A DNA stretch of 64,000 nucleotides from Escherichia phage Es2, in the sequence record OR515477.1. One strand, given 5' to 3'. Each line of letters opens with the position of its first letter. Positions within the stretch are counted from its first letter, which is position 1. The notes under the pieces are model-generated. The model was given only the letters and a program-made list of their open reading frames with translations. It was not told the DNA's origin and searched no databases. Both the position numbers and the translations under genes were made by a program. Positions 5,133-36,703 of the stretch are shown in pieces.

Positions 5133-5162
5133 ATTCATATAAATTAATGAGAGGGAAGCCAA

Positions 5163-5456
5163 ATGAAACGTTATCTTTCTGTTGTGTTCCAAACTGGTGG
5201 TCAACGCTATACTTACGAATTTCCTGGCTCTTGGAAGATCAAAGAAGGTGATCAAGTAGTAGTGTTAACACCGCGTGAGGGTTTTAAGGTAGTAACGGTT
5301 AAGCAAGTATTTCCAAAAGAGCGTGAACCAGCTAAAGGCATTCGCTATAAGATGATTCATGGTGTAGTTCGTCAAGTACCACGAGCGGAAGTCGAAATCA
5401 AAGTAGATAAAGATGGTAAACTTAAATATACCTCTTGCTTAGACGAGTTGCTATAA
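5163..5456 (+). CDS. hypothetical early protein
   Basis: Track ORF 97 aa, promoter and RBS upstream. Confidence 0.6.
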   Translation: MKRYLSVVFQTGGQRYTYEFPGSWKIKEGDQVVVLTPREGFKVVTVKQVFPKEREPAKGIRYKMIHGVVRQVPRAEVEIKVDKDGKLKYTSCLDELL

Positions 5457-5662
5457 TGAGGATTACTTTTACAGAAAAGATCATGAGTAATGGTGTTATG
5501 ATCATTACCGCATGGGATGGTAATCAGTGGTGTAGTGTTTCAGGTATTAAGCCTGAAGAACAAACACTAGATAATATCTCAAAGATTAAGCGAAGAATGA
5601 CAGAACGTGCACGACTTCCAGGTGCACCTAGAAATGGCAAACGTTCTGCTGCAAAATGTTAA
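5456..5662 (+). CDS. hypothetical early protein
   Basis: Track ORF 5435..5662 trimmed to in-frame ATG at 5456 that overlaps upstream stop (TAATG). Confidence 0.5.
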   Translation: MRITFTEKIMSNGVMIITAWDGNQWCSVSGIKPEEQTLDNISKIKRRMTERARLPGAPRNGKRSAAKC

Positions 5663-5663
5663 T

Positions 5664-5740
5664 GCTTCGGTAGCTTAGCGATCTAAAGCACTCGGCTGAT
5701 AACCGAGAGATCGGGGGTTTAAATCCCTCCCGGAGTACCA
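5664..5740 (+). tRNA. tRNA-Ile (anticodon GAT)
   Basis: Perfect anticodon stem CTCGG/CCGAG with loop CTGATAA, T-loop TTTAAAT, CCA. Confidence 0.65.
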
Positions 5741-5836
5741 AATTTAGGAATTAAGACTATGCGTCCAGGAAAGTTTAAAAAAGCTAATTGGTCTAAAGAG
5801 TATAAAGAATACTTACTTAGTCTAGTAAAACATAAT

Positions 5837-5912
5837 AGTTAGTTGGCAGAGTGGTTATGCACCTCCTTCATACGGAGCGACTACAGTGGTTCAAATCCAC
5901 TACTAACTACCA
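5837..5912 (+). tRNA. tRNA-Met (anticodon CAT), second copy; initiator/elongator/Ile2 not resolved
   Basis: Perfect acceptor AGTTAGT/ACTAACT, anticodon loop TTCATAC, T-arm AGTGG-TTCAAAT-CCACT, CCA. Confidence 0.65.
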
Positions 5913-5949
5913 TTAAAAGAGCTAGAGATAGCTAACTTTAGGAGCAGCT

Positions 5950-6144
5950 ATGTTAACAATTAAAATAATGTCAGCCAAGAATGGGGAACAGATTCATACA
6001 GGCAAAAGTGTAAGCTTTAATCCTAGAAATAAAAGACTGGCTATAGTTGGAGTAGACCAAGCCATCTTTTTAAAAGAAGATGAAGTAGCATATGTCATGA
6101 ACCAAACTGGTAAGACAGTTTCCGTATACTATGGAAAAGTATAA
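5950..6144 (+). CDS. hypothetical early protein
   Basis: Track ORF 64 aa, AGGAG RBS. Confidence 0.55.
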   Translation: MLTIKIMSAKNGEQIHTGKSVSFNPRNKRLAIVGVDQAIFLKEDEVAYVMNQTGKTVSVYYGKV

Positions 6145-6186
6145 AGAATAAATAGCTGAGCCAAATTCTAACATCGGGGAGATCTA

Positions 6187-6555
6187 ATGAAAGCATATCA
6201 AAACCTTAAATCTGGCGTAATTAATATTGTTCATAATAATCAGATCATTCAGCTATATTCCGATAATGGTGAACTTAAACAGAAAGTTCTAGTTGAAGAT
6301 CTAGAAGGTATCACACCTCACTTTGACCCTGAGGCCTTTCGCATTGTAGATGTGGAAGTGGTTCCTCAAATCGAAGGTGGTCAGCACCTAAATGTCAATG
6401 TATTAAGCCGTGATCAGCTTTTGGATGCGCAGAAACATCCTGAAAAATACCCTCAATTAACTATCCGTGTTTCAGGGTACGCTGTTCGATTTAATGCACT
6501 GACTCGTGAACAACAGAACGACGTTATTAGTCGTACATTTACTCAGGCGATGTAA
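6187..6555 (+). CDS. hypothetical early protein
   Basis: Track ORF 122 aa. Confidence 0.6.
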
Positions 6556-6636
6556 TGGGGTTTGGGTACGATTTCTCCCAGCTACGCAAGGTAGTCGAGC
6601 AAACTCCGTTTATCTCCCAAGTTTTAGGAGAAATGT

Positions 6637-6951
6637 GTGGATCGAGCATTAAGACGTCATCACAGGCAACGTGTAAAGAACAACCGCAAGAAGTACTGGA
6701 CAGTCTTTCCACATGAAGAAAGCCCTAAGCGGTTAGGTATTATCACTACTACTCCTTGCATCTGTTCTTGTTGGATGTGTGGGAACCCTCGCAAGTACTA
6801 TAAGAATAGTAAAGCAGGCATGAAAACCTCGGAGATCAGGAAAATGGAAGCGATGATTATGGGCATCTCAAATGATGAATTTGATGGCTTTGTAGGATTC
6901 GGAGAAGGAATCAGCTCAGGCTGTTTAGAAGATGAACGCCCCGACCTGTAA
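6637..6951 (+). CDS. hypothetical Cys-rich protein
   Basis: Track ORF 104 aa, CICSCWMCG motif. Confidence 0.5.
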   Translation: MDRALRRHHRQRVKNNRKKYWTVFPHEESPKRLGIITTTPCICSCWMCGNPRKYYKNSKAGMKTSEIRKMEAMIMGISNDEFDGFVGFGEGISSGCLEDERPDL

Positions 6952-7496: not shown

Positions 7497-7778
7497 ATGA
7501 AAAATCGCCTAGACTGTGCCATTCATGTTCTTGAACATGATGTTACGGGAACCTGTATGTCTTACCACGAAGCAGGTCGTTTAATTAAAGAACGCGTGGC
7601 AGATGTGTGCGGATTGAAGATTACTGCTGAGGAAGCTGATGATCTTTTAGGTCAAGCACTGGAGAAAACCGAAATGTTCCTCTGCGATTCTTGTTCTTGG
7701 TGGTGTGAAGCTCACGAACGTTCTTTCAACGATTATGATGTATGTCGTGATTGTAGTGGGGAGGATAAAGATGAATAA
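7497..7778 (+). CDS. hypothetical Cys-rich protein
   Basis: Track ORF 93 aa; CDSCSWWC and CRDCSG motifs. Confidence 0.55.
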   Translation: MKNRLDCAIHVLEHDVTGTCMSYHEAGRLIKERVADVCGLKITAEEADDLLGQALEKTEMFLCDSCSWWCEAHERSFNDYDVCRDCSGEDKDE

Positions 7779-9267: not shown

Positions 9268-9966
9268 ATGAGGATTATTTCTAAGTTCGCCGATGTGTAT
9301 GATTTGCAGAACAGTTTGTTTGACCCAGATCGTGTGTGGGAACGTAAAACTGAGGAGTTACTGGTTAAAGTAACCGATGATGCAGAAAAGAACATTGTGC
9401 ATACTCGCCAGGTATTTCGTGATGGTTCGCTATCTTTCCGTGGTGATTTCGAATACTTTGTAAACCCACTATTTGTTGCAGGTGAAGTTTACTGGTTACA
9501 CGAGCTGTACTGCTGGCATCCAGCATTTAGCTTCAAAACGTTCAACCTCGACACTATGTTCGATAAAATGGAAGAGATGGGATTGCATGCTCGCTCTTAC
9601 TTAATGGATAAGAGTCGCGGAGATGTTCGTGAAACAATGCGTGATTTGCTCGCTGAAGCAAAACCTAAAGCAGAACGTATCTTATCCGAACTGCGTGTAC
9701 CGATTGCATATGTGAAAGGTATTAAGAAGAACGATAACGATGATGTTCGTAACTTCGTGATTCAGACTAACATTCGTTTCCATCAGTCAGGTATTCCGTG
9801 GCAGGAAATTGAAAGTAACTTATACCGTTTACACCAAGTTCTCGAACAGTATATCTTCGGTGTACTAGGAACTGGTGAGCCTGATATGATTAAAGTATCA
9901 GATAAAGACAGGTTAGCAGCGCATGGATTTGATACAAAAACTTCTTTCAGGAATATGGCAAGGTAA
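9268..9966 (+). CDS. hypothetical early protein
   Basis: Track ORF 232 aa. Confidence 0.65.
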   Translation: MRIISKFADVYDLQNSLFDPDRVWERKTEELLVKVTDDAEKNIVHTRQVFRDGSLSFRGDFEYFVNPLFVAGEVYWLHELYCWHPAFSFKTFNLDTMFDKMEEMGLHARSYLMDKSRGDVRETMRDLLAEAKPKAERILSELRVPIAYVKGIKKNDNDDVRNFVIQTNIRFHQSGIPWQEIESNLYRLHQVLEQYIFGVLGTGEPDMIKVSDKDRLAAHGFDTKTSFRNMAR

Positions 9967-22918: not shown

Positions 22919-23075
22919 AGTCAACTCAGGCGGTTTTCATATTCCTAGAAACTCTAGCAATAGGCGGTTAATACAGGGCGGTTTTAGGGAGGGCGGTTAT
23001 TTCTAGAAGACATTTTTTGAAAACACATTTCTAGAAATTACTGTCGTATTTGCACACTGCATTTCTAGAAATTTA
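22919..23075. repeat. GGCGGTT direct repeats and ATTTCTAGAAAT palindromic 12-mers
   Basis: Four GGCGGTT(T/A) copies between 22919 and 23000; TTTCTAGAA(A/G) palindromes at about 23010, 23030 and 23062. Confidence 0.7.
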
Positions 23076-23643
23076 TGGTCGGATTTGCACAAACGCCTAA
23101 GTTTTTAGGAACATATAATCTCTTGAAAATGGCAGCATTATTTCGGGCCGAAGGCCCGTGATTGCCTGAGTTTTTAGAGCCACAAGAATTTTCACTTGTC
23201 AAGCTATTTTGCCCCATTTAGCAAATAAAATTTTACTTTATCTCCTCTAATCTCAAATTAACCCAAATCTTCTCAACTCTTCCCCAAAATACCCGCAAAT
23301 CAGGTGCTCCGCACCAAACATGCGCCTCTCCCACAGTTCCCCCAAAATTTCTCTCGCTCTCTCAACTTCTCCCCAAACATACACAATCACACACCCTCCA
23401 ATCGAAGCCACAAAAATCTTGTCGGATTCGCACATCTTAATCCTAGAAAAACCGTGTCGGATTTGCACATACCCCACAGGATTCGAACGCAGTTCGAGAT
23501 TGCTGGAGTTTTTAGGAAAATTCATTGTCGGATTCGCACACTATAAAAATTTTTCGGGTCGGATTTGCACACTACCAAAAATTGTCGGATTCGCACATAC
23601 ACGCCCGCACGTAACACCCGTGGAGCAATGTCGGATTTGCACA
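23042..23643 (+). repeat. eight direct copies of 15-bp motif (T/G)GTCGGATT(T/C)GCACA
   Basis: Copies at 23042, 23077, 23420, 23455, 23525, 23556, 23582 and 23629, all in the same orientation. Confidence 0.85.
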
Positions 23644-23667
23644 AAAGCGCAGGGCAATTGCCCTGCG
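23644..23667. repeat. perfect 24-bp palindrome AGCGCAGGGCAATTGCCCTGCGCT
   Basis: Read directly; centred on CAATTG, immediately after the last 15-bp repeat. Confidence 0.85.
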
Positions 23668-23880
23668 CTAAATGAGAATAAAAATAAGAATCATTCTCAT
23701 TTAGAAAGCGGAATGAGAATGATAATAATTCGCATTTAGAAAGCGAAATGAGAATCAATCTCATTTAAGAACGGAAACGAAAATTATTCAGGAAGTGAAA
23801 CGATTCTCATTTAGAAAGTGGAATGATTCTCATTTAGAAAGTGGAATGCAAATGATAATGATTCGCATTTAAGAATGGAA
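23668..23880. repeat. degenerate repeat family TCATTTAGAAAG(C/T)GGAATGA(T/G)
   Basis: At least six related copies with internal dyads (GAATGATTCTCATTC-like); a further copy at 24207-24232. Confidence 0.7.
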
Positions 23881-24012
23881 GTGAGAAACACTGTTATTTA
23901 AGTTATCCACAGACTTATCAACAGCACGATTTGACTTGACAAAATTCTAGCCATTTTGAGGCGTTATCAACAGACTTATCAACAGCTTATCCTACTGTAT
24001 AAATATACAGTA
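23880..24012. repeat. inverted-repeat arm L with DnaA-box-like 9-mers
   Basis: TTATCCACA at 23903 and TTATCAACA at 23915, 23964 and 23976; palindrome CTGTATAAATATACAG; reverse-complementary to 27111-27245. Confidence 0.8.
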
Positions 24013-24378
24013 TTCCTATGCAGTGAATAATTCTAATATACAGCTAAAACGCTCTCAAACGCATTCTAACGCGTTTAATTTTGGTGGGGATACTAAAACA
24101 CGGGCAAAATTGGAGGAGGCTTAGAAATTAGTTAGCTCGCTAACGATCACACAAGGCGACACGTAACATCCTAACCATTAGCAGGCTAACCATCGCGGGC
24201 GCGGTCAAATGAGAATGATTCTCATTTGAGAATTGGGGGCACTTCCTGATAGTTGCGCCCCGTGATTATTACAGTAGTGGGCAACCTTTACGCTTTGCCC
24301 ATTCCCGCCACTCATCTTGATGTCTAGACTTGCGACGGCGTACTAAAAACCATTTATACCAGTGATTAAACCATCGTT

Positions 24379-24582
24379 TCATAAATCCTCCTCCGGTAGT
24401 CGGTGCGTGATTTTTTCCTCCTCTCCGTAGGAATCCACTAAATGCTGATAATAACCATCGTGATCATAAATCACTTTATCATATTCGCCACGCTCGACCG
24501 CTTGTCGGTTTTCCGGCGTATCTGGCACGTAAAAAACATCAACCATTGTACTGATTTTGGTTACAACAATTTTATTGCTCAT
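24379..24582 (-). CDS. hypothetical small acidic protein
   Basis: Track ORF 67 aa; about 15 Asp/Glu against 7 Lys/Arg; last gene of the leftward operon. Confidence 0.55.
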   Translation of the reverse strand: MSNKIVVTKISTMVDVFYVPDTPENRQAVERGEYDKVIYDHDGYYQHLVDSYGEEEKITHRLPEEDL

Positions 24583-24607
24583 AATAACGCTCCGTTATTA
24601 TATAATC

Positions 24608-24952
24608 TCATTGTGCCACCTTTCGAAACGCTGTTTCAATACTTTCCGCAGTTGACTGAATATACGCGCCTTTCATGATCAGGCGCTCAGTGCATACCTT
24701 ACGGAAGATATTAATAAAATCATCTTCATTTTCTGCAATTAACGCTTCACCCATAACCTGAACGTCACAAGATGCAAAGGTCAAAAATTGAAACGCTAGT
24801 TCACGGGCAACGACCTCATTGATTTTATAATGCGCCTTGCCCTCATAAATATTAATAACGCCCTTATATGTTGGGGAAAGCTGATTTAAATAATTTGCTA
24901 ATAATGCTGGGCGGCAATTAGCAATAAAACGATTGCCTTCATAAATAACCAT
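24608..24952 (-). CDS. hypothetical protein
   Basis: Track ORF 24608..24967 trimmed to MVIYEG start with GGGAGG RBS. Confidence 0.55.
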   Translation of the reverse strand: MVIYEGNRFIANCRPALLANYLNQLSPTYKGVINIYEGKAHYKINEVVARELAFQFLTFASCDVQVMGEALIAENEDDFINIFRKVCTERLIMKGAYIQSTAESIETAFRKVAQ

Positions 24953-25079
24953 TTGACAGCCTCCCAATTAGATAGCCAGATAATAACATAAAGATCCCCA
25001 ATGAAAGGGGGTCATTTTTAAATAGGGTGGCGGTAAAACCGCCAGCCATTGCAAGGATGATAACAATAACGCTTTTCAT
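24939..25079 (-). CDS. hypothetical 46-aa membrane micro-protein
   Basis: Hand translation MKSVIVIILAMAGGFTATLFKNDPLSLGIFMLLSGYLIGRLSNGYL; overlaps neighbouring genes; below track cutoff. Confidence 0.4.
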   Translation of the reverse strand: MKSVIVIILAMAGGFTATLFKNDPLSLGIFMLLSGYLIGRLSNGYL

Positions 25080-25288
25080 AGTACCCCACGAAACGCAGCG
25101 TAAAAGGTGGCAAAATGTTTAACTGTTTCAGCTATCACGTTGCCGCGCTTGTCAAATTTCTTTTCTGTAACACGAAAGGCATTCTTATTACGTGCTACAT
25201 ATTCAATTTTACAATCTTCCCGCTCGAACGTGTTAACATCCACCAGCTTAAAGCCTTTCGAACGTGCAAGAGAAACATTGCGGATCAT
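25076..25288 (-). CDS. hypothetical basic protein
   Basis: Track ORF 70 aa; AGGAG RBS 8 nt upstream. Confidence 0.55.
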   Translation of the reverse strand: MIRNVSLARSKGFKLVDVNTFEREDCKIEYVARNKNAFRVTEKKFDKRGNVIAETVKHFATFYAAFRGVL

Positions 25289-25293
25289 TTTTA

Positions 25294-25440
25294 TTCTCCT
25301 TTACTAGTCATGCAGCCCAGCAGATAAGAAAATGCAGCGATACCCGCGCCAATAATAACCGCGTGAACACCGAAAGCTATTGCAAAAAGGGATAAAATAG
25401 CGCCCAAGATACCTGCTAGAATAGCTCGAAAAATAACCAT
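25294..25440 (-). CDS. hypothetical 48-aa membrane micro-protein
   Basis: Hand translation MVIFRAILAGILGAILSLFAIAFGVHAVIIGAGIAAFSYLLGCMTSKGE; GGAGA RBS; below track cutoff. Confidence 0.45.
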
Positions 25441-25486
25441 TTTCATTCTCCTAGTTTGCGGGGCGAAAGTAACGCCCCGTTATTAC

Positions 25487-25717
25487 TTACATTAAAACAA
25501 TTTTTGCCGCTTGTTTTTTAGTACAGTGTTCCGCTTTCAGGGTATCCAGCAAAAAGCCGGCCGTTTGCTGATCGATTTTATCGGCGTTGTATAGTTCTTG
25601 GATGGTGTTATAAGTTTTAGCAATGCCGAACTCCTGCACCATTTCATGAATGATGGCGCGATTAGATACCCAGCCTTGCGCGGTGAACAGATGACTAGCA
25701 GAAGAATAAGCAACCAT
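25487..25717 (-). CDS. hypothetical protein
   Basis: Track ORF 25487..25750 trimmed to MVAYSS start with GGAGG RBS. Confidence 0.55.
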   Translation of the reverse strand: MVAYSSASHLFTAQGWVSNRAIIHEMVQEFGIAKTYNTIQELYNADKIDQQTAGFLLDTLKAEHCTKKQAAKIVLM

Positions 25718-25835
25718 TTTAAACCTCCAAATTTTTGGGAAAATTTTCAACCGTCCTCAAACGGTGTAAAGGCATTATAACAAAAAAGGTCGCCATAAAA
25801 GGCGACCTTTACAAAACTTTACATTAGATTATTTA

Positions 25836-26846
25836 TTACTCGTTTTCGGTGTTAGTGGTAAAAGTAGAAATATCGATACCTTTTACCATTTCATCAATCA
25901 TTTCAGCGATGTTAAAACTTTGCACCATTTCCAACATTGCCGCTTCCATAGCTGCCCCTGCTACCGCTTTCGCTTTCTGGTTGCTTGGGGCATACTGGTC
26001 AACCGCTACGCTCAGCAGGTTGGCAATTACTACTCGACCGATAGGCGTATCAATATAACCTTTAATCATGAACGGTGCTTTTTTAGCCGCTACTTTCGTA
26101 ATTTGAGTCAGTGCAATTTTACCCGCTTCCAGTTTTGCAGCGTTTACAACGGCGGATTTATTAGCGGCAACGATGTTAGCAATCTTGGTCATGGTATTTT
26201 TTCCTTTATTTTCAGTGATTTGAGTATTAACGCTTTGAGTGTTAGAATTTACAGCATGGTTTTCTACGCTGTCAATAATCTGATCTTCATCTTTCCAGAA
26301 AGAAAAACCAGCGCTTTCTATATCCCCATCATAAATATACGGGTATAGCTCCCGTGGTAACAAAAAATTACCGTCGCCATCAAAAGCCATTATACCGGTA
26401 TATTGAGATCCGTCGTTATCCGGCTTATACCATCCAGCGGGTAAATACTTCCAGATAACATCTAAAAATCCCTCAATGCTAGAAAGTCCATTTATCAGAT
26501 CAAGCCCAATAAGCTCAAAACCATTTATATTAAATGATTGACGGCCTGAATTGCTATGATACGCAACAATAGTATTGCCCTGCGCAACAATAAAATCGGT
26601 ATCCGGCCCCGCTCCCCTGCCCGTAAAGATATGGCAATCCCGATTATGTAAAACTAGCGTTGCCCCTTGCTTATATAAGGGTAGAAAACTATCCATATCA
26701 TAGGCGTCATATTCATCAAAAAAGTTTTGATGAATAGTTTCAACCTTGTTAATAAAATGTTTAATGCTGGTTGACTTGCTACCGTCCAGCAGGTTACGCA
26801 ATGCACCTTTTAAGACGGTTGCGTTATCTGGTTTATAAAGCCTCAT
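25836..26846 (-). CDS. hypothetical protein with Ala/Lys-rich C-terminal half
   Basis: Track ORF 336 aa; first gene of the leftward operon. Confidence 0.65.
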   Translation of the reverse strand: MRLYKPDNATVLKGALRNLLDGSKSTSIKHFINKVETIHQNFFDEYDAYDMDSFLPLYKQGATLVLHNRDCHIFTGRGAGPDTDFIVAQGNTIVAYHSNSGRQSFNINGFELIGLDLINGLSSIEGFLDVIWKYLPAGWYKPDNDGSQYTGIMAFDGDGNFLLPRELYPYIYDGDIESAGFSFWKDEDQIIDSVENHAVNSNTQSVNTQITENKGKNTMTKIANIVAANKSAVVNAAKLEAGKIALTQITKVAAKKAPFMIKGYIDTPIGRVVIANLLSVAVDQYAPSNQKAKAVAGAAMEAAMLEMVQSFNIAEMIDEMVKGIDISTFTTNTENE

Positions 26847-27110
26847 TTGTTCGGCCTCCTCGTTAATCGGTGAGTGAATGATAAAGGTATTTTCTTTCTA
26901 GGGGCAAATATTATTTTACCTTTTTATTTTCTTTGCCTAACTCCTAGTTTTATGCTAATCGCGCAGCGGTACAGTAAAGAGCAAAACACGGCGAAGCCAC
27001 CAGGGCGACGGGTGAAGGCTTTACTTTAATATTACCCCACTGCATTTAGCTCGTTAGAAAGCGATTTAGGCCGCTTAAAATTGATTGCAGTTGTTAACAC
27101 TACCTTTTTA

Positions 27111-27245
27111 CCCTGTATATTTATACAGTAGGATAACCTGTGGATAAGTCTGTGTAAAAGTCCTTATATCGCCGCCTATCATGTCAAGTTATTTTACAAA
27201 ATGTATAAGTCTGTGGATAACTTAAATAATAGTGTTTCTCACTAA
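27111..27245. repeat. inverted-repeat arm R with DnaA-box-like 9-mers
   Basis: TGTGGATAA at 27139 and 27212; palindrome CTGTATATTTATACAG; reverse-complementary to 23880-24012. Confidence 0.8.
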
Positions 27246-27410
27246 CTAATTTATGCAGTTATTATATCGTAAAATATAGTTAGTTGGCTAATAGGATTTT
27301 AAAGTGATTATGAGTCCGCTAATTAAACCTGAAAAACTCATTAGCTAGTCTGCTAATCATTTTGATATAATATAATAGAGATTAAATTAATAACATAAGG
27401 AAACAATTAG

Positions 27411-27929
27411 ATGCCTAAATATAAACATATAGATTATGACCTTTTTAATAGTTACTTTTATTATGATGAAACATCGTTATCATTTTTACGCTGGCGAGAA
27501 GATCATGCCATCGCTGGTGGTTTAAATGGTAATTATTGGCAAGTTGAATTATTAGATAAAGGACAATTCAAAGTACATAGAATTATTTTTTGTATAATGA
27601 ATGGTGGTATAGATAGCGAGCTAATGATTGATCATATTGATCGTAACCCCCGTAATAATAACATTTGGAATCTTCGCGCGGTTGATAGTTCCCAGAATAA
27701 CTATAATAAGACTCCTAGTGAGTATGAAAACTATAAGCGTGCTAATGGTATCCCTAGAAACATTTACGTTAATAAAATTCGCCCCCGTGATAGTTTCGGG
27801 CGTGATTATTTAACTGCTCAAATTAAGAATCCTATTACTAACAAGCGTGTTAGTAAGTCTGGTTATGATTTACAAGAGTTATTATTATGGCTTGAAGCTA
27901 AAAAAGCTGAATTCGGAATTGTCAATTAA
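27411..27929 (+). CDS. HNH endonuclease (homing-endonuclease-like)
   Basis: 172 aa; HIDRNPRNNNIWNLR...SQNNYNK His-Me finger pattern; AT-rich gene inside a more GC-rich module. Confidence 0.65.
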   Translation: MPKYKHIDYDLFNSYFYYDETSLSFLRWREDHAIAGGLNGNYWQVELLDKGQFKVHRIIFCIMNGGIDSELMIDHIDRNPRNNNIWNLRAVDSSQNNYNKTPSEYENYKRANGIPRNIYVNKIRPRDSFGRDYLTAQIKNPITNKRVSKSGYDLQELLLWLEAKKAEFGIVN

Positions 27930-29225: not shown

Positions 29226-29633
29226 ATGACTAACGCAAAAACCGCAAAATTCGCATGGAATGAAGAAAACACCCAAAAAGCTGTTACCATGTACCAGCAG
29301 TTAATCAACGAAAACGGTTTAGATTTCGCAAATAGTGACGGGCTGAAAGAGATTGCAAAAGCAGTAGGCGCGGCTTCTCCCGTATCCGTTCGCTCAAAAT
29401 TGACCAGTGCAAAAGCCTACCAGAAAAGCGATAAGCCGCGTAAAGTTGGCGGCGGCAGTTCTGTACGCAAAGCGCATTATGTGCGTGTTATTGCTAAACA
29501 TGCCATTGATTCCGGCATTATCAAAGACGCTGACGATCTGGCATCACTGGAAAGTGCAAAACTTGAAACGCTGGACGCGGTAGCGCAATTGCTAGGCGTT
29601 GCCGATGAAGTGAAACAAGCCGCAGGCGAATAA
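29226..29633 (+). CDS. A2: A2-like pre-early protein (putative DNA-binding)
   Basis: 135 aa; position immediately upstream of the A1-like gene; assignment by synteny and size only. Confidence 0.5.
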   Translation: MTNAKTAKFAWNEENTQKAVTMYQQLINENGLDFANSDGLKEIAKAVGAASPVSVRSKLTSAKAYQKSDKPRKVGGGSSVRKAHYVRVIAKHAIDSGIIKDADDLASLESAKLETLDAVAQLLGVADEVKQAAGE

Positions 29634-29920: not shown

Positions 29921-30016
29921 TGTTGCAAATTATAACGCCTATTATTCAAGGCGTTATATTTGGCAATATTTGCCAATAACAAACGTTTTTTAATCCCTTT
30001 AATGGAGTTTATTACT

Positions 30017-31681
30017 ATGATTATTTCCGCAGAAAAACAAACCGTTATCCTGAAAATGGCCGCTGACTTTAATTTCTATGGTAAACGTCTGCGCGCCACT
30101 AAACTGGAGGTCTGCGACGATATATCAAAAGCGGTCTACGATACAACAAAACACTCGACCGCCATTTGTGATTGGCTGGAAGCAAATAAACCAGTTAAAC
30201 CAAAAGCTGCAAAAGTAGCAAAAGCTATTAAAAACGATGAGCGCCCCGAAGCGGCTGGGATCGTTTCTAGCACGGTTGAACAGTGGGAAGTAAAACAAGG
30301 CAAACGCTTTATTATTACGTCGATTCAGAATAATACTTTCCCGCATAAAAACTTTTTGGCCTCGCTTGAACAGTATGCTAAATACATCGGCGCTGATTTG
30401 CTTGTTTCTAAGTATATTTATAATAAAAACGGCTTCCAAAATGGTGAAGGTGCGGATGGAATCAAATATGATTCCGCGTTCGATAAGTATATTTGCAGCA
30501 AAAACGTGTTTTTAAACAACCGCCGTTTTGCTTTCATGGCTGAAATTAACGTTTTGCCTACCGCAGATTATCCGCTTTCTGGATTCGCTGAAACTGCAAC
30601 GGCGCTTAATCTTGAAGGTCTGGCAATTGGTCACGCTAAAATCACCGCCGAAAGCGTGCCAGCTTTAAAAGGTGAAGTAGTACGCCGCATGTACTCAACC
30701 GGAACGGCAACGCTAAAAAACTACATTCAGCAGAAAGCAGGGCAAAAAGCGGAAGCGCTGCATAACTTCGGTGCGCTGATTGTTGAGTTCGACGAAGACG
30801 GTGAGTTTTTTGTACGCCAGCTTGAAACAATGGACGAAAGCGGGGTGTTTTATGATCTGAATGTTTGCGCTACTCCCGCAGGATGCTATGAAACATCGGG
30901 GCATGTTTTAGGTTTACAATATGGCGACATCCACGCAGAAAAATTAGATGATGATTGTGCCGTTGCGTCATGGGCTGGCGAAAATAGCTTGCTTGATATT
31001 CTTAAACCAAAATATCAGTTTATCCATGACGTTCACGATTTTACATCTCGCAATCATCATAATCGTGCGTCCGGTGTATTCCTAGCGAAACAGTACGCCG
31101 CCGGACGTGATAAAGTTCTGGATGATCTTATCGATACGGGGCGCGTGCTGGAATCAATGGAACGTGATTTTAGTCAAACGATCATTGTTGAATCGAATCA
31201 CGATTTGGCGCTATCCCGTTGGCTGGATGATCGTAATGCTAACATTAAAGACGATCCAGCAAACGCCGAACTATATCACCGCCTGAATGCTGCAATTTAC
31301 GCGGCAATCGGTGAACACGACGAAACGTTTAACGTGTTAGATTATGCGCTGCGCAAGGTTGCAGGTTGCGAGTTTAACGCCATTTTCCTAACAACTGACC
31401 AATCATTTAAAATTGCAGGCATCGAGTGTGGCGTACACGGTCACAACGGCATTAACGGAAGCCGTGGCAATCCTAAACAGTTTAAGAAATTGGGCAAACT
31501 GAACACGGGGCATACGCATACGGCAAGCATTTACGGCGGGGTATACACCGCTGGCGTGGCTGGTAGTCTGGACATGGGTTACAACGTTGGCGCGTCAAGC
31601 TGGACGCAAACGCATTTAATTACCTATGCAAACGGTCAGCGCACTTTGATTGACTTTAAAAACGGTAAATTCTTTGCGTAA
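30017..31681 (+). CDS. A1: A1-like pre-early protein with metallophosphatase motifs
   Basis: Track ORF 29960..31681 trimmed to ATG at 30017 with GGAG RBS (554 aa); ESNHD and GHTHT phosphoesterase-like motifs. Confidence 0.7.
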   Translation: MIISAEKQTVILKMAADFNFYGKRLRATKLEVCDDISKAVYDTTKHSTAICDWLEANKPVKPKAAKVAKAIKNDERPEAAGIVSSTVEQWEVKQGKRFIITSIQNNTFPHKNFLASLEQYAKYIGADLLVSKYIYNKNGFQNGEGADGIKYDSAFDKYICSKNVFLNNRRFAFMAEINVLPTADYPLSGFAETATALNLEGLAIGHAKITAESVPALKGEVVRRMYSTGTATLKNYIQQKAGQKAEALHNFGALIVEFDEDGEFFVRQLETMDESGVFYDLNVCATPAGCYETSGHVLGLQYGDIHAEKLDDDCAVASWAGENSLLDILKPKYQFIHDVHDFTSRNHHNRASGVFLAKQYAAGRDKVLDDLIDTGRVLESMERDFSQTIIVESNHDLALSRWLDDRNANIKDDPANAELYHRLNAAIYAAIGEHDETFNVLDYALRKVAGCEFNAIFLTTDQSFKIAGIECGVHGHNGINGSRGNPKQFKKLGKLNTGHTHTASIYGGVYTAGVAGSLDMGYNVGASSWTQTHLITYANGQRTLIDFKNGKFFA

Positions 31682-32505: not shown

Positions 32506-33240
32506 ATGAGTCAAGTTAAAACGAATATTACCCGCTCTTTCCCGCATATTTCCCGCGTTATGATTTGGGATCTGGACGGCACTATCATTAATTCTTTCCA
32601 TCGTGTAGCGCCTTGTTTTGATAGCGAGGGCAATTTAGATTTAAATAAATATAAAAATGAAGCCTGCAAACATCATTTAATAATGCAGGATTCATTATTG
32701 CCATTAGTTGAATATATGCGCCAGTGTATGAATGACGCTAACACGTTAAACATTATTTGCACCGCTCGACTGATGAGCAAGTCAGATTATTATTTCTTGC
32801 GTAAACAAGGATTGCGGGGGCGTGGAAATAGCAATATCCGCGTGTTTTCCCGCGATACCCTGCACAAATACTTTAAAGCTGATAAAGTTAGCGAGATATA
32901 CCACAGTAAGGACGCAGTTTATAAATCTTATTATTTTGAATTATTTAAACAATTATATCCGAACGCTGATTTTACAATGATTGATGATCATAAAGGCGTG
33001 TTAGCGGCGGCGGCATCATACGGATTTAAAACGCTGGACGCACAAGCCGTTAACGATATTCTATCAATCGGTGTTACATTGATTGGTGAAACCTTTATTG
33101 ATGAATCGCTCGACGATGATAATGATTATCAGTTCCTAGCAGACCGCCTGCAATTATGTTGGGAAGGTATGACCGAGGAAGAACGCGCAGAATATAGTTG
33201 CAGTCCTCAACAGTACATCGAGAAATTAAAAGTTGCATAA
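32506..33240 (+). CDS. dmp: 5'-deoxyribonucleotidase, HAD family
   Basis: 244 aa; HAD motif I IWDLDGTIINS; size and position match my recollection of T5 dmp. Confidence 0.75.
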   Translation: MSQVKTNITRSFPHISRVMIWDLDGTIINSFHRVAPCFDSEGNLDLNKYKNEACKHHLIMQDSLLPLVEYMRQCMNDANTLNIICTARLMSKSDYYFLRKQGLRGRGNSNIRVFSRDTLHKYFKADKVSEIYHSKDAVYKSYYFELFKQLYPNADFTMIDDHKGVLAAAASYGFKTLDAQAVNDILSIGVTLIGETFIDESLDDDNDYQFLADRLQLCWEGMTEEERAEYSCSPQQYIEKLKVA

Positions 33241-33397
33241 TAATTAAAGTTGAAATAGTCACGGTGTGTAATGATAACATGCCGTGACTATTAGTCTGCT
33301 AAGTACCGGGCGGTAATGAGACTCATTCTCATCTGGTGGGCCACTGGACACACCTCCATGTGTAATCTTATGAAATTTGGCAAAAAGGTAATTAGCG

Positions 33398-33601
33398 CTA
33401 TTTACGGACTGACTGCTCAAAGACTTCCCGCCACAGAGGGTCAGTCTTAACTAGATTATTAATATGCTCAATAGCTTCATCAAATCTCATGAATCCTTCC
33501 GGGATTTCCGAAGACTTAGGAAAAACTTGCAGCATCTCCTGTGTGATACCCATCTTTTCAAGATCTTCTTGGGTTAACTTAAACTGTCCGAATTCTTTCA
33601 T
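33398..33601 (-). CDS. hypothetical protein
   Basis: Track ORF 67 aa. Confidence 0.5.
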   Translation of the reverse strand: MKEFGQFKLTQEDLEKMGITQEMLQVFPKSSEIPEGFMRFDEAIEHINNLVKTDPLWREVFEQSVRK

Positions 33602-33843
33602 GAACTTCTCCTGTCTACCGGCTTATCTCCAGATTCTGACATACGAAATCTCTTTCGTGACGCCCGAGAACCGTCCGCCCACTCCCTCTCAAACTCCGCA
33701 CGTTTCTTCGCAAACCTCCGCTCTCTTTCCGCAATCTCCCGCGACACTTCCGCAATATATTTACGATGCGTATTAATAGCCGCAGTCATTCCGAAAACTC
33801 CCGCGATTACCCCGATAATAAAAGCAATTACAATACTAAACAT
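33598..33843 (-). CDS. hypothetical single-pass membrane protein with charged tail
   Basis: Track ORF 81 aa; N-terminal TM helix then Arg/Glu-rich region. Confidence 0.5.
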   Translation of the reverse strand: MFSIVIAFIIGVIAGVFGMTAAINTHRKYIAEVSREIAERERRFAKKRAEFEREWADGSRASRKRFRMSESGDKPVDRRSS

Positions 33844-34030
33844 CTAGTTCTCTCTCAATTTGCAGAATACGAGTGCTATCACAACGTTGCAATTCTACTA
33901 ATTTTTCTATAGCAAATTGTTGTTGTTTTACCTGGGCCTCTAGAGTTTTTAGGCGAACGTACACGGTGTAAGAAATAATGAAAGCTGACCAAACTGCTAG
34001 TACTATTAATATAGCTACTACTTCCATCAT
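33836..34030 (-). CDS. membrane micro-protein, paralog c
   Basis: Track ORF 64 aa MMEVVAILIV...; TM helix plus coiled-coil tail; ATGA overlap with paralog b. Confidence 0.5.
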   Translation of the reverse strand: MMEVVAILIVLAVWSAFIISYTVYVRLKTLEAQVKQQQFAIEKLVELQRCDSTRILQIERELDV

Positions 34031-34134
34031 TTACGTTTCTCCAGTAACAGAGTTTCAATTCTAGCTAAGTGGTTATCTAAAATACATTGCCCGATAATCA
34101 CAATCCCTAGTAGTGCAATAATTACCCATTCCAT
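34027..34134 (-). CDS. membrane micro-protein, paralog b (35 aa)
   Basis: Hand translation MEWVIIALLGIVIIGQCILDNHLARIETLLLEKRK; below track cutoff. Confidence 0.45.
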   Translation of the reverse strand: MEWVIIALLGIVIIGQCILDNHLARIETLLLEKRK

Positions 34135-34289
34135 TGTTTACGCTCCTCTAATAAAATTTCAATCCTAGATAATCTGTTACTCAACTGCATTAATTTAGCT
34201 TCTACTTGTGTTATAGAGGTATCTATTACACGTAAGCCTACAAAGAGAAGTATCAGTAAGATGAATATGCCAATAATTACCCATTCCAT
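34122..34289 (-). CDS. membrane micro-protein, paralog a (55 aa)
   Basis: Track ORF 34122..34319 trimmed to MEWVIIGIFILL start that overlaps upstream stop (TAATG). Confidence 0.5.
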   Translation of the reverse strand: MEWVIIGIFILLILLFVGLRVIDTSITQVEAKLMQLSNRLSRIEILLEERKQWNG

Positions 34290-34480
34290 TAAATCCACCC
34301 CGCCATAGCTGCTAACCAAAAACCTACGAAAATAAAGAATAGGATAGTTCCGAACCCAAAACTATTTATCCAGCTATCATATACCTCTCCACGTCTGCTC
34401 TTTCTTTTGTTTGACATATCTTTCATGCTCCTATAAATGTGATTTTTGAAATATTCTATAATTTGTGCACAACCGACCAT
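34289..34480 (-). CDS. hypothetical membrane protein
   Basis: Track ORF 63 aa; C-terminal hydrophobic segment. Confidence 0.5.
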   Translation of the reverse strand: MVGCAQIIEYFKNHIYRSMKDMSNKRKSRRGEVYDSWINSFGFGTILFFIFVGFWLAAMAGWI

Positions 34481-34593
34481 GCCTGTGAACTCATAGAAGG
34501 ACTTCTACTTTTCTTACATAGTGGTTTCTGCCAATATACCATCCAAGAAATAAAAAATTTAGTTTACTTGGATGTCTTTTTGTTTTATACTAA

Positions 34594-34860
34594 TTACAGG
34601 TAATTAGATTGCTCTAGTTTAAATTTACAATCACCGTATTTAAGGTCAAACTGACTGAGATCCCACCACCCAAACTTAGTACGGAGCTGTACTACTGGAA
34701 AGCGATCTCCCTTAATACGAACTTTTTGAACCTTGAGGCCGTAATGTTCCTCTCCAGCACCACCAAAAGATTTTACAAACCCCGTACAAAATGGTTTGGG
34801 GGCAGGTGCACAACCAGATAACATAACTGCGGCAACTAGTGCAATCACAAACTTTTTCAT
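34594..34860 (-). CDS. llp: Llp-like lipoprotein (candidate receptor-blocking lytic-conversion protein)
   Basis: 88 aa; signal peptide with lipobox LSGC; divergent from the receptor-binding protein gene. Confidence 0.65.
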   Translation of the reverse strand: MKKFVIALVAAVMLSGCAPAPKPFCTGFVKSFGGAGEEHYGLKVQKVRIKGDRFPVVQLRTKFGWWDLSQFDLKYGDCKFKLEQSNYL

Positions 34861-34945
34861 ATTTATCTCTCCATTTCTAATTTATGAATCTATTATAGCA
34901 AAATAGAGAGATGAAAGCAAATACATTTTTATAATAGGAGATTAT

Positions 34946-36703
34946 ATGGGTTTTTTCGCTGGAAAATATAGCGATGGTAAGACCGTACTATCTTTAAATA
35001 CTGAATCTGGTGGTGACATTAATCGTCACTATAGCCCAAATGCCAATAGTATTTTTCATAGTGATATGCCATTTGTCCTAGTTGATGGTACTTACGAGGC
35101 TGGGTTAGGTAATGCCGGGAATGGGTTTTTTGTATGTCAAATGCCCTCTGACATAATAAATATTAAATCTAATGACCCGGGTAGAGTTATACTAACTGCT
35201 ATTGAAATTAATGGTACTCACAGAGCTTTTCTTAATGGTACTCAGAGTAAGGTTGGTCAAACTATAGTTGCCACTCAGGCAGACCCCTTTAGGTCTTTTG
35301 CCAGTGTTTCTCAAACCAGTGGATTTGCATTTGGTAATAGTCTAGCATCTGGCACTTATAACTACAACCCCTCTCTAGGGCATGAAGAATCTATCTCTAG
35401 AAGTGGCACAGGGGGTACTACGTTACATAGTACGTATCATGGTATAGTTAGGCCCGGTGGTGGAGCACCTGTAGGAGTTACTGTTGCAGAAGCCTTTGCA
35501 CAATTAGGTTTTCCTACTAATAGTAGCACAGTACCTGTAGATGGTAATAACCCATACTATTGGGATCCTGGATGGATGGCTCCTCTAGGAGCAGCATATA
35601 GGGGGCATGATTGGTTTTATGTTTGCAATTCTAATATACGTGGATATGGTGGGGTTAGGCAAGGGCTCCCTGGTAATGTAAATACTATGTACCATGATGG
35701 TGGTAATAGATTTGTTTGTAGAGGGTCTACTACTAATTTAGCTAACCAGTCGGGTGACTCTACAATACTACAGGACTGGTATAATATAACTCCTACTAAG
35801 GTTATTTGGTATGTTCTTAATTTAAGGTACTCAAATGGTGGAATGAGTATTTCAGGTAACCCTTTCACTGGTTCTGATATTCTTATATCTCCTTCTAATT
35901 TTATAATTAAAGGGGTAAGTCTCCCTAATACCGGGTATAAATTTATTAATCAGAATGCTTTTGGTAACCTAGGTTACCGTCCTGATATGGAGTATATAGG
36001 GAATAACGCTGCGTATACTGGGGTTTTTGGGGATACCACTGCAAGGTGTGAACTTGTAGGATCTAGTAATGGAGGGTTGTGGTCTCCTGTAGATTATGGA
36101 GGTGCCAAATCACAGATTAGCATTTACAAATTTGGAGCAGGTAAACAGTGGTATGTAAACTCTAACGATAATACTATTGGTAATGAGCATGGGGTTGTTT
36201 GGGGACCATCAGCAGTTCCATTACGACTTTTTGGAGGAAATGTAGGTAGCTCTTACATGGGGGATGATATTACTCCTAGCTATCCAGGAACTGGGGATAG
36301 GTACGTTGGTTTATCAACTATTGGGCTAGGTATACCTGGTGGCAATGCTACAGTAATTCTTACTACTGAAGTTATATCAGGTAATCTTAACTGTGCAGGT
36401 GTCCCAGCTAACACATGGAATAATGGTGTGTTTCAAGTACAAGGAAGAAAAGCGCATAGTTATAGTAATGGAGATGCAATATTCCACCAGATTCTAACGC
36501 TACCTGTGGGCTATCTAGTACCTTTTCATACTACAGCAGCTTTTAGATACACCCCTAATAATGCTTTAAGCAGGAATAGTTTTATATATACCGCTAAAAA
36601 CCTAGGAAATGGAAATGTAGAGTTAGGGGTAGTTATGCATGTCAGTTTAGGTAGTGCAGTTTTCTTACCTAGACTAAGAGTAACAGTTCAACGCCTTACC
36701 TAA
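34946..36703 (+). CDS. oad: receptor-binding tail protein (pb5-like)
   Basis: 585 aa, Gly/Asn-rich; position next to llp and before terminase; receptor identity not determinable here. Confidence 0.65.

What the first reader, a model, noticed from the sequence alone, without database searches (positions are those of the whole stretch)
24300..27300. Compact leftward operon bracketed by DnaA-box-bearing inverted repeats
Seven tightly packed, partly overlapping genes on the - strand (26846 down to 24379) sit between two roughly 130-bp reverse-complementary arms (23880-24012 and 27111-27245). The block is visibly more GC-rich than the early and late regions. It encodes a 336-aa protein with an Ala/Lys-rich C-terminal half, two roughly 47-aa hydrophobic micro-proteins missed by the ORF track, and a 67-aa acidic protein. 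None carries a motif I recognise. An inverted-repeat-bracketed cassette at the pre-early/early boundary fits an anti-host or takeover module, or a horizontally acquired cassette.
Basis: partly seen in the sequence, partly recalled or inferred. Interest (0 to 1): 0.75.

Follow-up and report, generated by a model that had tools for sequence, protein, structure and literature searches.

The report
Known phage T5 pre-early gene block
This is the well-described accessory half of the DNA that a T5-like phage injects first: non-essential, partly toxic host-takeover genes lying between two long-known 131-bp inverted repeats that carry DnaA boxes. It is ordinary for this phage family, although each repeat also ends in a near-perfect LexA (SOS) box that I could not find discussed anywhere.

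Summary
The window comes from a T5-like phage (Tequintavirus), reversed relative to the T5 record. The anatomy is real. Seven packed minus-strand ORFs (26846-24379) are orthologues of T5.011, .012, .013, .014, .015 and .017, plus a 46-aa hydrophobic ORF found in about half of relatives. The arms (23880-24010 and 27113-27243, 131 bp, 77% identical) are T5's annotated IRD'-spacer-IRC' and IRC-spacer-IRD. Their paired DnaA boxes were described in 1987 and compared across 25 phages by Davison (2020).

Two sub-claims fail:
- GC content is not distinctive (40.4% against 38.9%, 77th percentile).
- The block is two transcription units (P4-011-terminator, then P5-012 onwards), not one operon.

In T5, genes 011, 013 and 015 are toxic, 015 is an Ung-dependent nickase, and deleting hegG-017 leaves a viable phage. 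Verdict: already known, low interest.

Three things this analysis adds:
- The 20-bp palindrome at the inner end of each arm (T5 "palD") is one mismatch from the LexA-box consensus. It is conserved in Tequintavirus, Sugarlandvirus, My1 and the one Novosibvirus and one Vibrio phage checked.
- The block is inverted between the arms in Sugarland, IME260 and My1.
- The "Ung nickase" database label sits on the 70-aa T5.014 family, not on T5.015.

The parts
27113..27243 (.). A2-side arm, equivalent to T5 IRC-spacer-IRD ('Repeat Region 2'). IRC is 27205-27243 and IRD is 27113-27153. It carries three consensus DnaA boxes (27139, 27151, 27212, minus strand) and one degenerate box.
   Evidence: (97% and 96% identical to AY587007 6022-6060 and 6112-6152)
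23880..24010 (.). iss-side arm, equivalent to T5 IRD'-spacer-IRC' (start of 'Repeat Region 3', the injection-stop region). IRC' is 23880-23918 and IRD' is 23970-24010. It has TTATCCACA at 23903 and TTATCAACA at 23915, 23964 and 23976.
23993..24012 (.). Palindrome D, TACTGTATAAATATACAGTA, at the inner end of the iss-side arm. It is one mismatch from the LexA/SOS-box consensus TACTG(TA)5CAGTA.
   Evidence: 0 expected by chance; annotated only as 'palindrome D' in T5
27111..27130 (.). Second copy of the LexA-box-like palindrome, CCCTGTATATTTATACAGTA, at the inner end of the A2-side arm.
26843..26939 (-). Counterpart of T5 pre-early promoter P4, upstream of gene 011. The -35 is TTGCCC, the spacer is 18 nt and the -10 is TATCAT (26907-26878).
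   Evidence: (90% identical to AY587007 6331-6420); one search lists the promoter upstream of 011 as experimentally characterised in T5
25836..26846 (-). Orthologue of T5.011 (336 aa; Pfam DUF7566, phrog_4263). The N-terminal half is variable and mixed alpha/beta; the C-terminal half is an invariant helical Ala/Lys-rich domain. It is toxic in T5, where it disorganises the nucleoid.
   Evidence: (89.6% identical to T5)
25785..25810 (-). Rho-independent terminator hairpin after 011 (AAAGGTCGCC-TTTTAT-GGCGACCTTT followed by a T run). It corresponds to the T5 terminator at 7534-7559.
25700..25794 (-). Counterpart of T5 putative pre-early promoter P5, which drives 012-017.
   Evidence: (96.8% identical)
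25487..25750 (-). Orthologue of T5.012 (87-aa ORF; the T5 and PHROG start gives 76 aa). Function unknown.
   Evidence: 82.8%; phrog_5145
25291..25446 (-). Orthologue of T5.013 (51 aa, hydrophobic, two transmembrane segments). In T5 its expression compromises membrane integrity and lyses cells.
   Evidence: (64.5% to T5; 96% to NBSal005)
25076..25288 (-). Orthologue of T5.014 (70 aa, basic; phrog_4227). Databases label it 'Ung-dependent endonuclease', which is probably an off-by-one label.
   Evidence: (100% identical to T5.014)
24939..25079 (-). 46-aa hydrophobic micro-protein (phrog_19184). It is absent from T5 and present in 14 of the 29 related genomes.
24608..24967 (-). Orthologue of T5.015 (114 aa from the ATG at 24952; phrog_4379). 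By the numbering used in the papers, this is the Ung-dependent AP-site nickase.
   Evidence: (92%)
24379..24582 (-). Orthologue of T5.017 (67 aa, acidic). Function unknown. T5.016 is absent here.
   Evidence: (89.6%)
24269..24382 (-). 37-aa very basic ORF that overlaps the stop codon of 017 (ATGA). It is conserved in T5, where it is not annotated, and in MM-1.
23034..23875 (.). Rest of the non-coding injection-stop (iss) repeat region. It holds TGTCGGATTTGCACA direct repeats (T5 DRD), AATGAGAATGATTCTCATTT palindromes (DRC, palE-I), the counterpart of the 7.9% nick at about 23640-23647, and the counterpart of the T5 terminal-repeat end at about 23177.

Best explanation
This region is the right-hand, accessory half of the first-step-transfer (pre-early) DNA of a T5-like phage.

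Shown by orthology and by the literature on T5:
[quoted passage not shown] One is P4-011-terminator. The other is P5-012-013-014-(46 aa)-015-017-(37 aa).
- The products are non-essential host-takeover factors. Gp011 disorganises the nucleoid. Gp013 is a two-transmembrane-segment protein that damages the membrane. Gp015 uses host Ung to nick dUMP-containing DNA at abasic sites.
- The whole stretch can be deleted from T5 with only a plaque-size cost.

The two arms are T5's IRC-spacer-IRD and IRD'-spacer-IRC'. These are conserved non-coding elements, each with two pairs of DnaA boxes. The iss-side arm opens the injection-stop repeat region.

Inferred:
- The arms are binding platforms for host proteins. 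DnaA was proposed by Davison. I add LexA, because each arm ends in a near-consensus SOS box.
- Because the arms are long, conserved inverted repeats, they also act as homology anchors. The genes between them are shuffled between phages, and the block has been flipped at least once (Sugarland, IME260, My1).
For: Identity of the region:
- 530 phage records match it, and the annotated neighbours are A2, A1, dmp and the LTR.
- ORF-by-ORF orthology to T5.011-.017 runs from 64% to 100%, with matching PHROG and Pfam families.
- T5's annotated IRC, IRD, IRD', IRC', palD, P3-P5 and terminator map onto the window at 88-100% identity.

Published description of the arms, of the eight DnaA boxes in pairs 3 bp apart, and of the constant 52-bp spacer.

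Function of the genes:
- Toxicity of 011, 013 and 015, and the nickase activity.
- Deletion of hegG-017 leaves a viable phage.
- In the Tequintavirus Bas33, pre-early transcripts and ten pre-early proteins were detected after first-step transfer (reported for the pre-early region as a whole).

Conservation and flexibility:
- Both arms and both palindromes are present in 39 of 39 loci with enough flank (29 genomes). The inter-arm distance ranges from 1.6 to 4.1 kb and gene content varies.
- In Sugarland and IME260 the order 011 -> 164 aa -> 015-like is syntenic but inverted. My1 likewise has 011-like, 164-aa-like and 017-like genes on the opposite strand, in that order.
Against: - Nothing contradicts the identification.
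- The function of the arms is untested anywhere. The BF23 paper says so explicitly.
- The T5 deletion from hegG to 017 should remove the A2-side arm, since the arm lies between hegG and 011 (inferred from the gene map; the exact endpoints were not seen). That phage is viable, so a pair of arms would not be essential.
- DnaA consensus boxes are not enriched in the window as a whole (6 found, 8.1 expected). They are only clustered in the arms.
- Gp011 gave a low-confidence structure model and no fold match. Its mechanism therefore stays unknown.
Confidence: 0.9

Rival explanations
1. The arms are LexA- and DnaA-bound control or anchoring sites, and the LexA box is the key part. Host LexA would occupy palD on both arms of the incoming DNA. 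A1-driven degradation of the host chromosome would activate RecA, LexA would cleave itself, and the sites would be vacated. This would couple host DNA destruction to a later step, such as resumption of DNA transfer, access for A1/A2, or promoter activity.
For: - TACTGTATAAATATACAGTA is one mismatch from the consensus. These two sites are the only ones in 64 kb with 3 or fewer mismatches, against 0 expected.
- The palindrome columns are among the best conserved of the arm in 59 distinct arm sequences.
- It is conserved where A1 is only 34-66% identical: My1, Proteus phage 1 and a Vibrio phage.
- In Proteus phage 1 the A2-side copy lacks the adjacent DnaA-box pairs seen in the T5 arm.
- The hosts share the CTGT-N8-ACAG LexA motif.
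- No searchable paper links LexA to T5 first-step-transfer DNA.
Against: - There are no binding data.
- The boxes lie about 180-265 bp from the mapped P4 and P3 promoters and do not overlap them.
- A few relatives carry CTGG in the core.
- In T5, A2 mutants degrade host DNA yet do not resume transfer. LexA loss therefore cannot be sufficient.
- The A2-side copy appears to be deletable.
- The palindrome could equally be the site of the phage A2 dimer.
- Papers from 1987, 2005 and 2015 that I could not read may already mention it.
Confidence: 0.3
2. The block is a horizontally acquired mobile cassette, and the arms are the terminal inverted repeats of a transposon-like or invertase-driven element.
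For: - Long inverted repeats flank a block of variable content.
- The block occurs in both orientations across genera.
- An HNH homing endonuclease sits just outside one arm.
Against: - No transposase, integrase or invertase is present among the eight ORFs.
- GC content is unremarkable.
- The arms are at the same position in every relative, including phages that lack most of the genes.
- All 27 close-relative genomes (Tequintavirus-type, A2 at least 86% identical) in the set of 29 have the same orientation, so this is not a frequent switch.
- The arms continue into the conserved iss repeat array.
Confidence: 0.04
3. The DnaA-box clusters are a phage replication origin that flanks the block.
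For: Eight boxes arranged in pairs recall oriC.
Against: - T5 origins map near the middle of the genome.
- The replication genes lie in the second-step DNA and are not yet present when this region acts (Davison).
- No AT-rich unwinding element or initiator gene lies next to the arms.
Confidence: 0.03

Closest known systems
Phage T5 IRC-spacer-IRD and IRD'-spacer-IRC' (Repeat Regions 2 and 3; injection stop signal). Sources: Heusterspreute 1987, Wang 2005, Davison 2015 and 2020.
   Same: - 131-bp length.
- A 39-bp outer repeat, a 52-bp spacer and a 41-bp inner repeat.
- Paired DnaA boxes 3 bp apart.
- The same position between hegG/hdi and 011 on one side, and between 017 and the iss repeats on the other.
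- 90-97% sequence identity.
   Different: - Here all four pairs are recognisable, whereas T5 lost one box to a 2-bp deletion.
- The inter-arm distance, measured between the two palindromes, is 3118 bp here and 3198 bp in T5.
T5 pre-early genes T5.011-T5.017 (Mahata 2021; Annor 2026)
   Same: The order, strand, promoters P4 and P5, and the terminator after 011 are the same. Protein identity is 64-100%.
   Different: - This phage lacks T5.016.
- It carries an extra 46-aa hydrophobic ORF between 014 and 015.
- Its 013 is only 64% identical to T5's and belongs to the NBSal005-type allele.
E. coli SOS (LexA) operators such as those of recA, sulA and umuDC
   Same: A 20-bp palindrome with CTGT-N8-ACAG, an AT-rich (TA)n centre and TA flanks. 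It is one mismatch from the ideal consensus.
   Different: - It does not overlap a mapped promoter.
- It is duplicated as the ends of a 3-kb inverted repeat and abuts three tandem DnaA-like boxes.
- Binding is untested.
Invertible segments of phages Mu (G) and P1 (C)
   Same: A gene block lies between inverted repeats and is found in both orientations.
   Different: - There is no Gin/Cin-type invertase.
- Orientation is fixed within each genus, so the change is evolutionary rather than a programmed switch.
- The genes are not tail-fibre variants.

Membership tests
T5-type first-step-transfer (pre-early) region of Demerecviridae | Lies in the terminal-repeat DNA together with dmp, A1 and A2 | tested here: met
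   A2 (29226-29633), A1 (29960-31681) and dmp (32506-33240) lie immediately downstream. A1 is 99% identical to that of phage LmqsSP1. Synteny matches the T5 LTR.
T5-type first-step-transfer (pre-early) region of Demerecviridae | Bounded on the early-gene side by the non-coding iss repeat array and the 7.9% nick site | tested here: met
   The DRD and DRC repeats, palE-J, the nick site and the LTR end all map to 23162-23889.
T5-type first-step-transfer (pre-early) region of Demerecviridae | Physically transferred first and expressed before the rest of the genome | not testable with these tools
   This needs blender-shear or time-resolved sequencing experiments. It has been shown only for T5, BF23 and Bas33.
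T5 IRC-spacer-IRD / IRD'-spacer-IRC' inverted repeat pair | Two 131-bp reverse-complementary arms with a 52-bp spacer between the outer and inner repeats | tested here: met
   The alignment covers 23880-24010 against 27243-27113. The outer 39 bp are 97% identical, the inner roughly 41 bp are well conserved, and the spacer is divergent.
T5 IRC-spacer-IRD / IRD'-spacer-IRC' inverted repeat pair | Eight DnaA or DnaA* boxes, in pairs separated by 3 bp | tested here: met
   Examples are TTATCCACA-GAC-TTATCAACA and TTATCAACA-GAC-TTATCAACA. Four consensus boxes, three TTATCAACA boxes and one degenerate box are present.
T5 IRC-spacer-IRD / IRD'-spacer-IRC' inverted repeat pair | DnaA protein actually binds the boxes and halts DNA transfer (Davison's model) | not testable with these tools
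   No experiment exists. The A2-side arm appears dispensable in T5, judged from the hegG-017 deletion.
T5.015 Ung-dependent AP-site nickase | Orthology to the protein studied by Mahata et al. | tested here: inconclusive
   - Window ORF 24608-24967 is 92% identical to AAS77062 (locus tag T5.015, 114 aa).
- Window ORF 25076-25288 is 100% identical to T5.014 (70 aa), which is called ORF015 in AY587007.
- PHROGs and RefSeq put the nickase label on the 70-aa protein. The papers use NC_005859 numbering, which points to the 114-aa protein.
- Both proteins are present here, so the activity is very likely encoded either way.
LexA (SOS) operator | Match to CTGT-N8-ACAG / TACTG(TA)5CAGTA | tested here: met
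   The two copies have 1 and 3 mismatches. None is expected by chance.
LexA (SOS) operator | Overlaps or adjoins a promoter that it represses, and LexA binds it | tested here: not met
   The boxes lie 180-265 bp from the mapped P3 and P4 promoters. Only weak consensus promoter-like hits overlap them. Binding itself cannot be tested here.
Transposon or invertible element | Encodes a transposase or invertase, or occurs at varied positions | tested here: not met
   No such domain was found in Pfam, PHROGs or PADLOC scans. The position is fixed in all relatives.

The most novel reading that the evidence does not exclude
The conserved 20-bp palindrome that closes each arm (T5 'palD') is a genuine high-affinity LexA operator kept by Demerecviridae on their first-injected DNA, next to tandem DnaA boxes. 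Under this reading, two-step DNA transfer or pre-early timing is read out through two host DNA-binding proteins, and LexA self-cleavage triggered by A1-driven host DNA destruction acts as a timer. A secondary point is that the same arms are the recombination anchors that inverted the accessory block in Sugarlandvirus and My1 and that shuffle its content.
Probability: 0.25. Interest if true: 0.6.

Novelty: already known. Interest (0 to 1): 0.17.

Why it matters
As stated, the finding rediscovers a textbook feature of phage T5. Its value lies in correct annotation rather than discovery.

How T5 pauses and then resumes DNA entry has been open for more than 50 years. The cis-elements involved have never been tested experimentally. 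A conserved near-consensus LexA box inside those elements gives a cheap, specific experiment: LexA footprinting, palD point mutants, and lexA(Ind-) hosts.

The inverted but syntenic block in Klebsiella and Pectobacterium phages shows that the accessory genes there were flipped, not replaced as previously written.

The mismatch between the database label and the gene numbering for the Ung-dependent nickase could mislead annotation pipelines such as Pharokka/PHROGs and RefSeq.

Tried and rejected
- **Structure of Gp011.** AlphaFold2 was run on a 17-sequence alignment whose members are 76-97% identical to the window protein. More distant homologues were not listed by the search or could not be submitted. 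Mean pLDDT was 59.6, and the best Foldseek match against the PDB had E = 0.15. No inference was drawn.
- **Sequence search of 011, 014 and 015 against PDB chains.** Nothing was found.
- **Other family scans.** Pfam gave only DUF7566 for 011. PADLOC gave nothing.
- **Rfam scan of 22.5-28.5 kb.** The only hit was a sub-threshold SprD match (26 bits against a gathering score of 100), treated as chance.
- **GC or codon deviation as a sign of horizontal transfer.** Rejected.
- **Host-motif covariation test for LexA.** A1-bearing phages of alphaproteobacteria were considered. Rhizobium phage RHph_N37 is an Autographiviridae phage with A1 embedded among replication genes and no comparable region, so the test does not apply.
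- **Resolving T5.014 against T5.015 from the Mahata paper.** No supplementary files are held, and the text gives no protein size.
- **Davison's 2015 review.** It could not be read.
- **Replication-origin and transposon readings.** Both were rejected; see the rival explanations.


Full report
**What the window is.**
A megablast of 23600-27500 hits 530 phage records, almost all Tequintavirus or other Demerecviridae infecting Salmonella, Escherichia or Klebsiella. The best matches are 91-93% identical over 90-97% of the query. In records with an annotated left terminal repeat, the match falls at about 5.6-10 kb of the repeat on the opposite strand. The window is therefore reversed relative to the T5 convention.
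- Downstream on the plus strand lie an HNH endonuclease, hdi (T5.008), T5.007, A2, a small membrane protein, A1 and dmp. A1 is 99.1% identical to that of Salmonella phage LmqsSP1.
- Upstream lies the non-coding repeat array that T5 records annotate as the injection stop signal.
- T5's DRC and DRD repeats, palindromes E-J, the 7.9% nick and the end of the terminal repeat map to 23162-23889.
- The finding therefore covers the right-hand half of the first-step-transfer (pre-early) DNA.

**Checking the observation.**
The seven minus-strand ORFs exist as described. The two arms align over 131 bp (23880-24010 with 27243-27113) at 77% identity. The score is 114, against a maximum of 28 in 300 shuffles. 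The outer 39 bp are 97% complementary.

DnaA boxes are as claimed, in pairs separated by 3 bp:
- Left arm: one consensus box and three TTATCAACA boxes.
- Right arm: three consensus boxes and one degenerate box.

Consensus boxes are not enriched in the window as a whole (6 found, 8.1 expected). However, four of the six lie in these 262 bp.

Two sub-claims fail:
- The block is not compositionally distinct. It is 40.4% GC against 38.9% for the window, which is the 77th percentile of equal-sized windows. The A2/A1/dmp side is 40.3%.
- It is not one operon. A strong hairpin terminator at 25810-25785 follows the 336-aa gene, and the counterpart of T5 promoter P5 follows the terminator, exactly as annotated in T5.

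A conserved eighth ORF of 37 aa overlaps the stop codon of the last gene.

**Gene identities.**
tblastn against T5 gave the following:

| Window ORF | T5 gene | Identity to T5 | Family |
|---|---|---|---|
| 336 aa | T5.011 | 89.6% | DUF7566, phrog_4263 |
| 87 aa | T5.012 | 82.8% | phrog_5145 |
| 51 aa | T5.013 | 64.5% | phrog_5607 |
| 70 aa | T5.014 | 100% | phrog_4227 |
| 119 aa (114 from the T5-equivalent ATG) | T5.015 | 92% | phrog_4379 |
| 67 aa | T5.017 | 89.6% | phrog_6973 |

The 46-aa hydrophobic ORF (phrog_19184) has no T5 counterpart. T5.016 is missing here.

Published work on T5 shows that:
- 011 and 015 (Mahata 2021) and 011, 013 and 015 (Annor 2026) are toxic in E. coli.
- 011 disorganises the nucleoid.
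- 013 has two transmembrane segments and lyses cells.
- 015 nicks abasic sites made by Ung.
- A T5 mutant deleted from hegG to 017 is viable, with smaller plaques.

In the Tequintavirus Bas33, pre-early transcripts and ten pre-early proteins were detected after first-step transfer; this was reported for the pre-early region as a whole. The 'takeover module' reading is therefore correct, and already published.

**The arms are a named, published feature.**
AY587007 annotates inverted repeats C and D (6022-6060, 6112-6152), D' and C' (9332-9372, 9424-9462), and palindrome D (9330-9349). These map to the window arms at 90-97% identity. Davison's 2020 preprint compares 25 T5-like phages and describes:
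- the 131-bp IRC-spacer-IRD and IRD'-spacer-IRC';
- the constant 52-bp spacer;
- eight DnaA or DnaA* boxes in pairs 3 bp apart, the first of them reported in 1987;
- the poor conservation of the roughly 3-kb coding block between the arms.

He proposes that membrane-bound DnaA halts DNA entry at these boxes. A 2023 paper on BF23 notes that no experiment has tested this. The finding is therefore already known.

**Relatives.**
I fetched 40 IMG/VR loci through A2 and scanned them.
- Every locus with enough flank (39 loci, 29 genomes) has both arms.
- The distance between the arms ranges from 1.6 to 4.1 kb.
- Content is mosaic. 011 is absent from 4 genomes. The 46-aa ORF is in 14 genomes. A 164-aa ORF is in 13. 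T5.016 is only in T5.
- Identity for 011 ranges from 55% to 97% in phages where 014 stays at 91-100%.
- The exact arrangement seen in the window recurs in several phages.

**Block orientation in distant relatives.**
In Klebsiella phages Sugarland and IME260 (identified), the flanks have the same orientation as the window but the block is on the other strand. The gene order is the same when read from its own promoter end:
- an 011 homologue (37% identity over the full length, E = 2e-44);
- the 164-aa ORF (35%);
- a 115-aa protein whose C-terminus matches 015 (E = 2e-6).

Pectobacterium phage My1 likewise carries 011-like, 164-aa-like and 017-like genes on the opposite strand, in that order. Davison described these phages as having the region 'replaced by other sequences read in the opposite direction'. 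The homology shows an inversion between the inverted repeats instead.

**A LexA-box-like palindrome.**
The inner end of each arm is a 20-bp palindrome: TACTGTATAAATATACAGTA at 23993 and CCCTGTATATTTATACAGTA at 27111. The first is one mismatch from the E. coli SOS-box consensus TACTG(TA)5CAGTA.
- No other site in 64 kb comes within 3 mismatches, and none is expected by chance.
- Its columns are among the most conserved of the arm in 59 distinct arm sequences.
- It persists in My1 and in Proteus phage 1 (Novosibvirus). In Proteus phage 1 the A2-side copy lacks the adjacent DnaA-box pairs.
- It also persists in a Vibrio phage, which has three copies, each next to DnaA boxes. There A1 is only about 34% identical.
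- All these hosts use the CTGT-N8-ACAG LexA motif.
- Davison's preprint does not mention LexA or SOS. No paper in the searchable library links LexA to T5 first-step DNA.
- I could not read the 1987, 2005 or 2015 papers.

Points against a classical operator role:
- The boxes are 180-265 bp from the mapped promoters.
- A few relatives have CTGG in the core.
- The A2-side copy appears to be deletable in T5, judged from the hegG-017 deletion.

The palindrome could instead be a site for the phage A2 dimer. I rate a real LexA role at about 0.25-0.3.

**Mechanism, with shown and inferred steps marked.**
- *Shown by orthology plus the T5 literature:* pre-early transcription from P4 and P5 by host polymerase; toxic, dispensable host-takeover products; conserved arms at fixed positions.
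- *Inferred:* the arms are binding platforms for host proteins (DnaA, perhaps LexA), with the iss-side arm taking part in the transfer pause. As long inverted homologies, the arms also mediate exchange and inversion of the block.
- *Unknown:* what Gp011, 012, 014, 017 and the two small ORFs do. The AlphaFold model of Gp011 was poor (pLDDT 59.6) and gave no fold match.

**Database label conflict.**
PHROGs (phrog_4227) and RefSeq put 'endonuclease nicking abasic sites generated by Ung' on the 70-aa T5.014. AY587007 calls that protein ORF015 because it splits 011 in two. Both papers use NC_005859/AY543070 numbering: hdi is 008, hegG is 010 and 013 has two transmembrane segments. In that numbering T5.015 is the 114-aa protein. 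The label looks off by one. I could not prove this from the text available.

**Verdict.**
- The feature is already known, so interest is low.
- The LexA-box reading and the inversion are modest, testable additions.

Noticed in passing
window 23993-24012 and 27111-27130; also L016 (T5) 4707 and 7905; L046 (My1) 6613; L047 (Proteus phage 1) 6373 and 9911; L048 (Vibrio phage) 7165, 10262 and 10939: A near-consensus LexA/SOS box (T5 'palindrome D') sits at the inner end of each inverted-repeat arm. It is conserved in every Demerecviridae genome examined (Tequintavirus, Sugarlandvirus, My1, one Novosibvirus, one Vibrio phage), and no paper I could read discusses it as a LexA site.
   Followed up: partly
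L043 (Klebsiella phage Sugarland) 4203-8223; L044/L045 (IME260); L046 (My1) 2609-6685: The accessory gene block between the arms is syntenic with T5's but inverted relative to the flanks. Earlier literature described it as replaced. This implies at least one inversion through the inverted repeats.
   Followed up: yes
window 25076-25288 (70 aa) versus 24608-24967 (114/119 aa): PHROGs and RefSeq label the 70-aa T5.014 family as the Ung-dependent nickase. The papers' 'T5.015' is the 114-aa protein under NC_005859 numbering. The 70-aa protein is 'ORF015' only in AY587007. This is probably an off-by-one annotation that has propagated through pipelines.
   Followed up: partly
central bases of palD in L006-L045: The asymmetric centre of the palindrome flips between AAA and TTT among close relatives, on either arm. 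In T5 both copies read TTT in the same orientation, so they are not an exact inverted pair at the centre. This suggests gene conversion or hairpin-templated repair within the palindrome.
   Followed up: no
window 27411-27929 (+): An HNH homing endonuclease lies just outside the A2-side arm. It is 95% identical to that of NBSal005 but only 56% identical to T5 hegG, and it is absent from many relatives. It is an independently mobile insert that splits T5 'Repeat Regions' 1 and 2.
   Followed up: partly
window 24269-24382 (-): A 37-aa very basic, Trp-rich ORF (MKRWFNHWYKWFLVRRRK...) overlaps the stop codon of 017 by ATGA. It is conserved at 81-94% in T5 and MM-1 but is not annotated in T5.
   Followed up: partly
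window 25458-25480: A GC-rich hairpin (GCGGGGCG-loop-CGCCCCGT) lies between genes 012 and 013 on the transcribed strand, with no T tract after it. It may be an RNA-stabilising or processing element rather than a terminator.
   Followed up: no
arm spacers, window about 23930-23940 and 27180-27190: A TTGACA hexamer in the otherwise divergent 52-bp spacer is conserved in nearly all 59 distinct arm sequences. No convincing -10 element lies at the right distance.
   Followed up: no
window about 33260-36703: The record carries a single copy of the terminal repeat, joined directly to what should be the right end of the unique genome. T5 bases 1-104 have no match in the window. Next come a lipoprotein-like 88-aa ORF (34594-34860, minus strand) and a 585-aa ORF (34946-36703). 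From my own knowledge these resemble the llp and receptor-binding-protein pair of T5-like phages; I did not test this.
   Followed up: no
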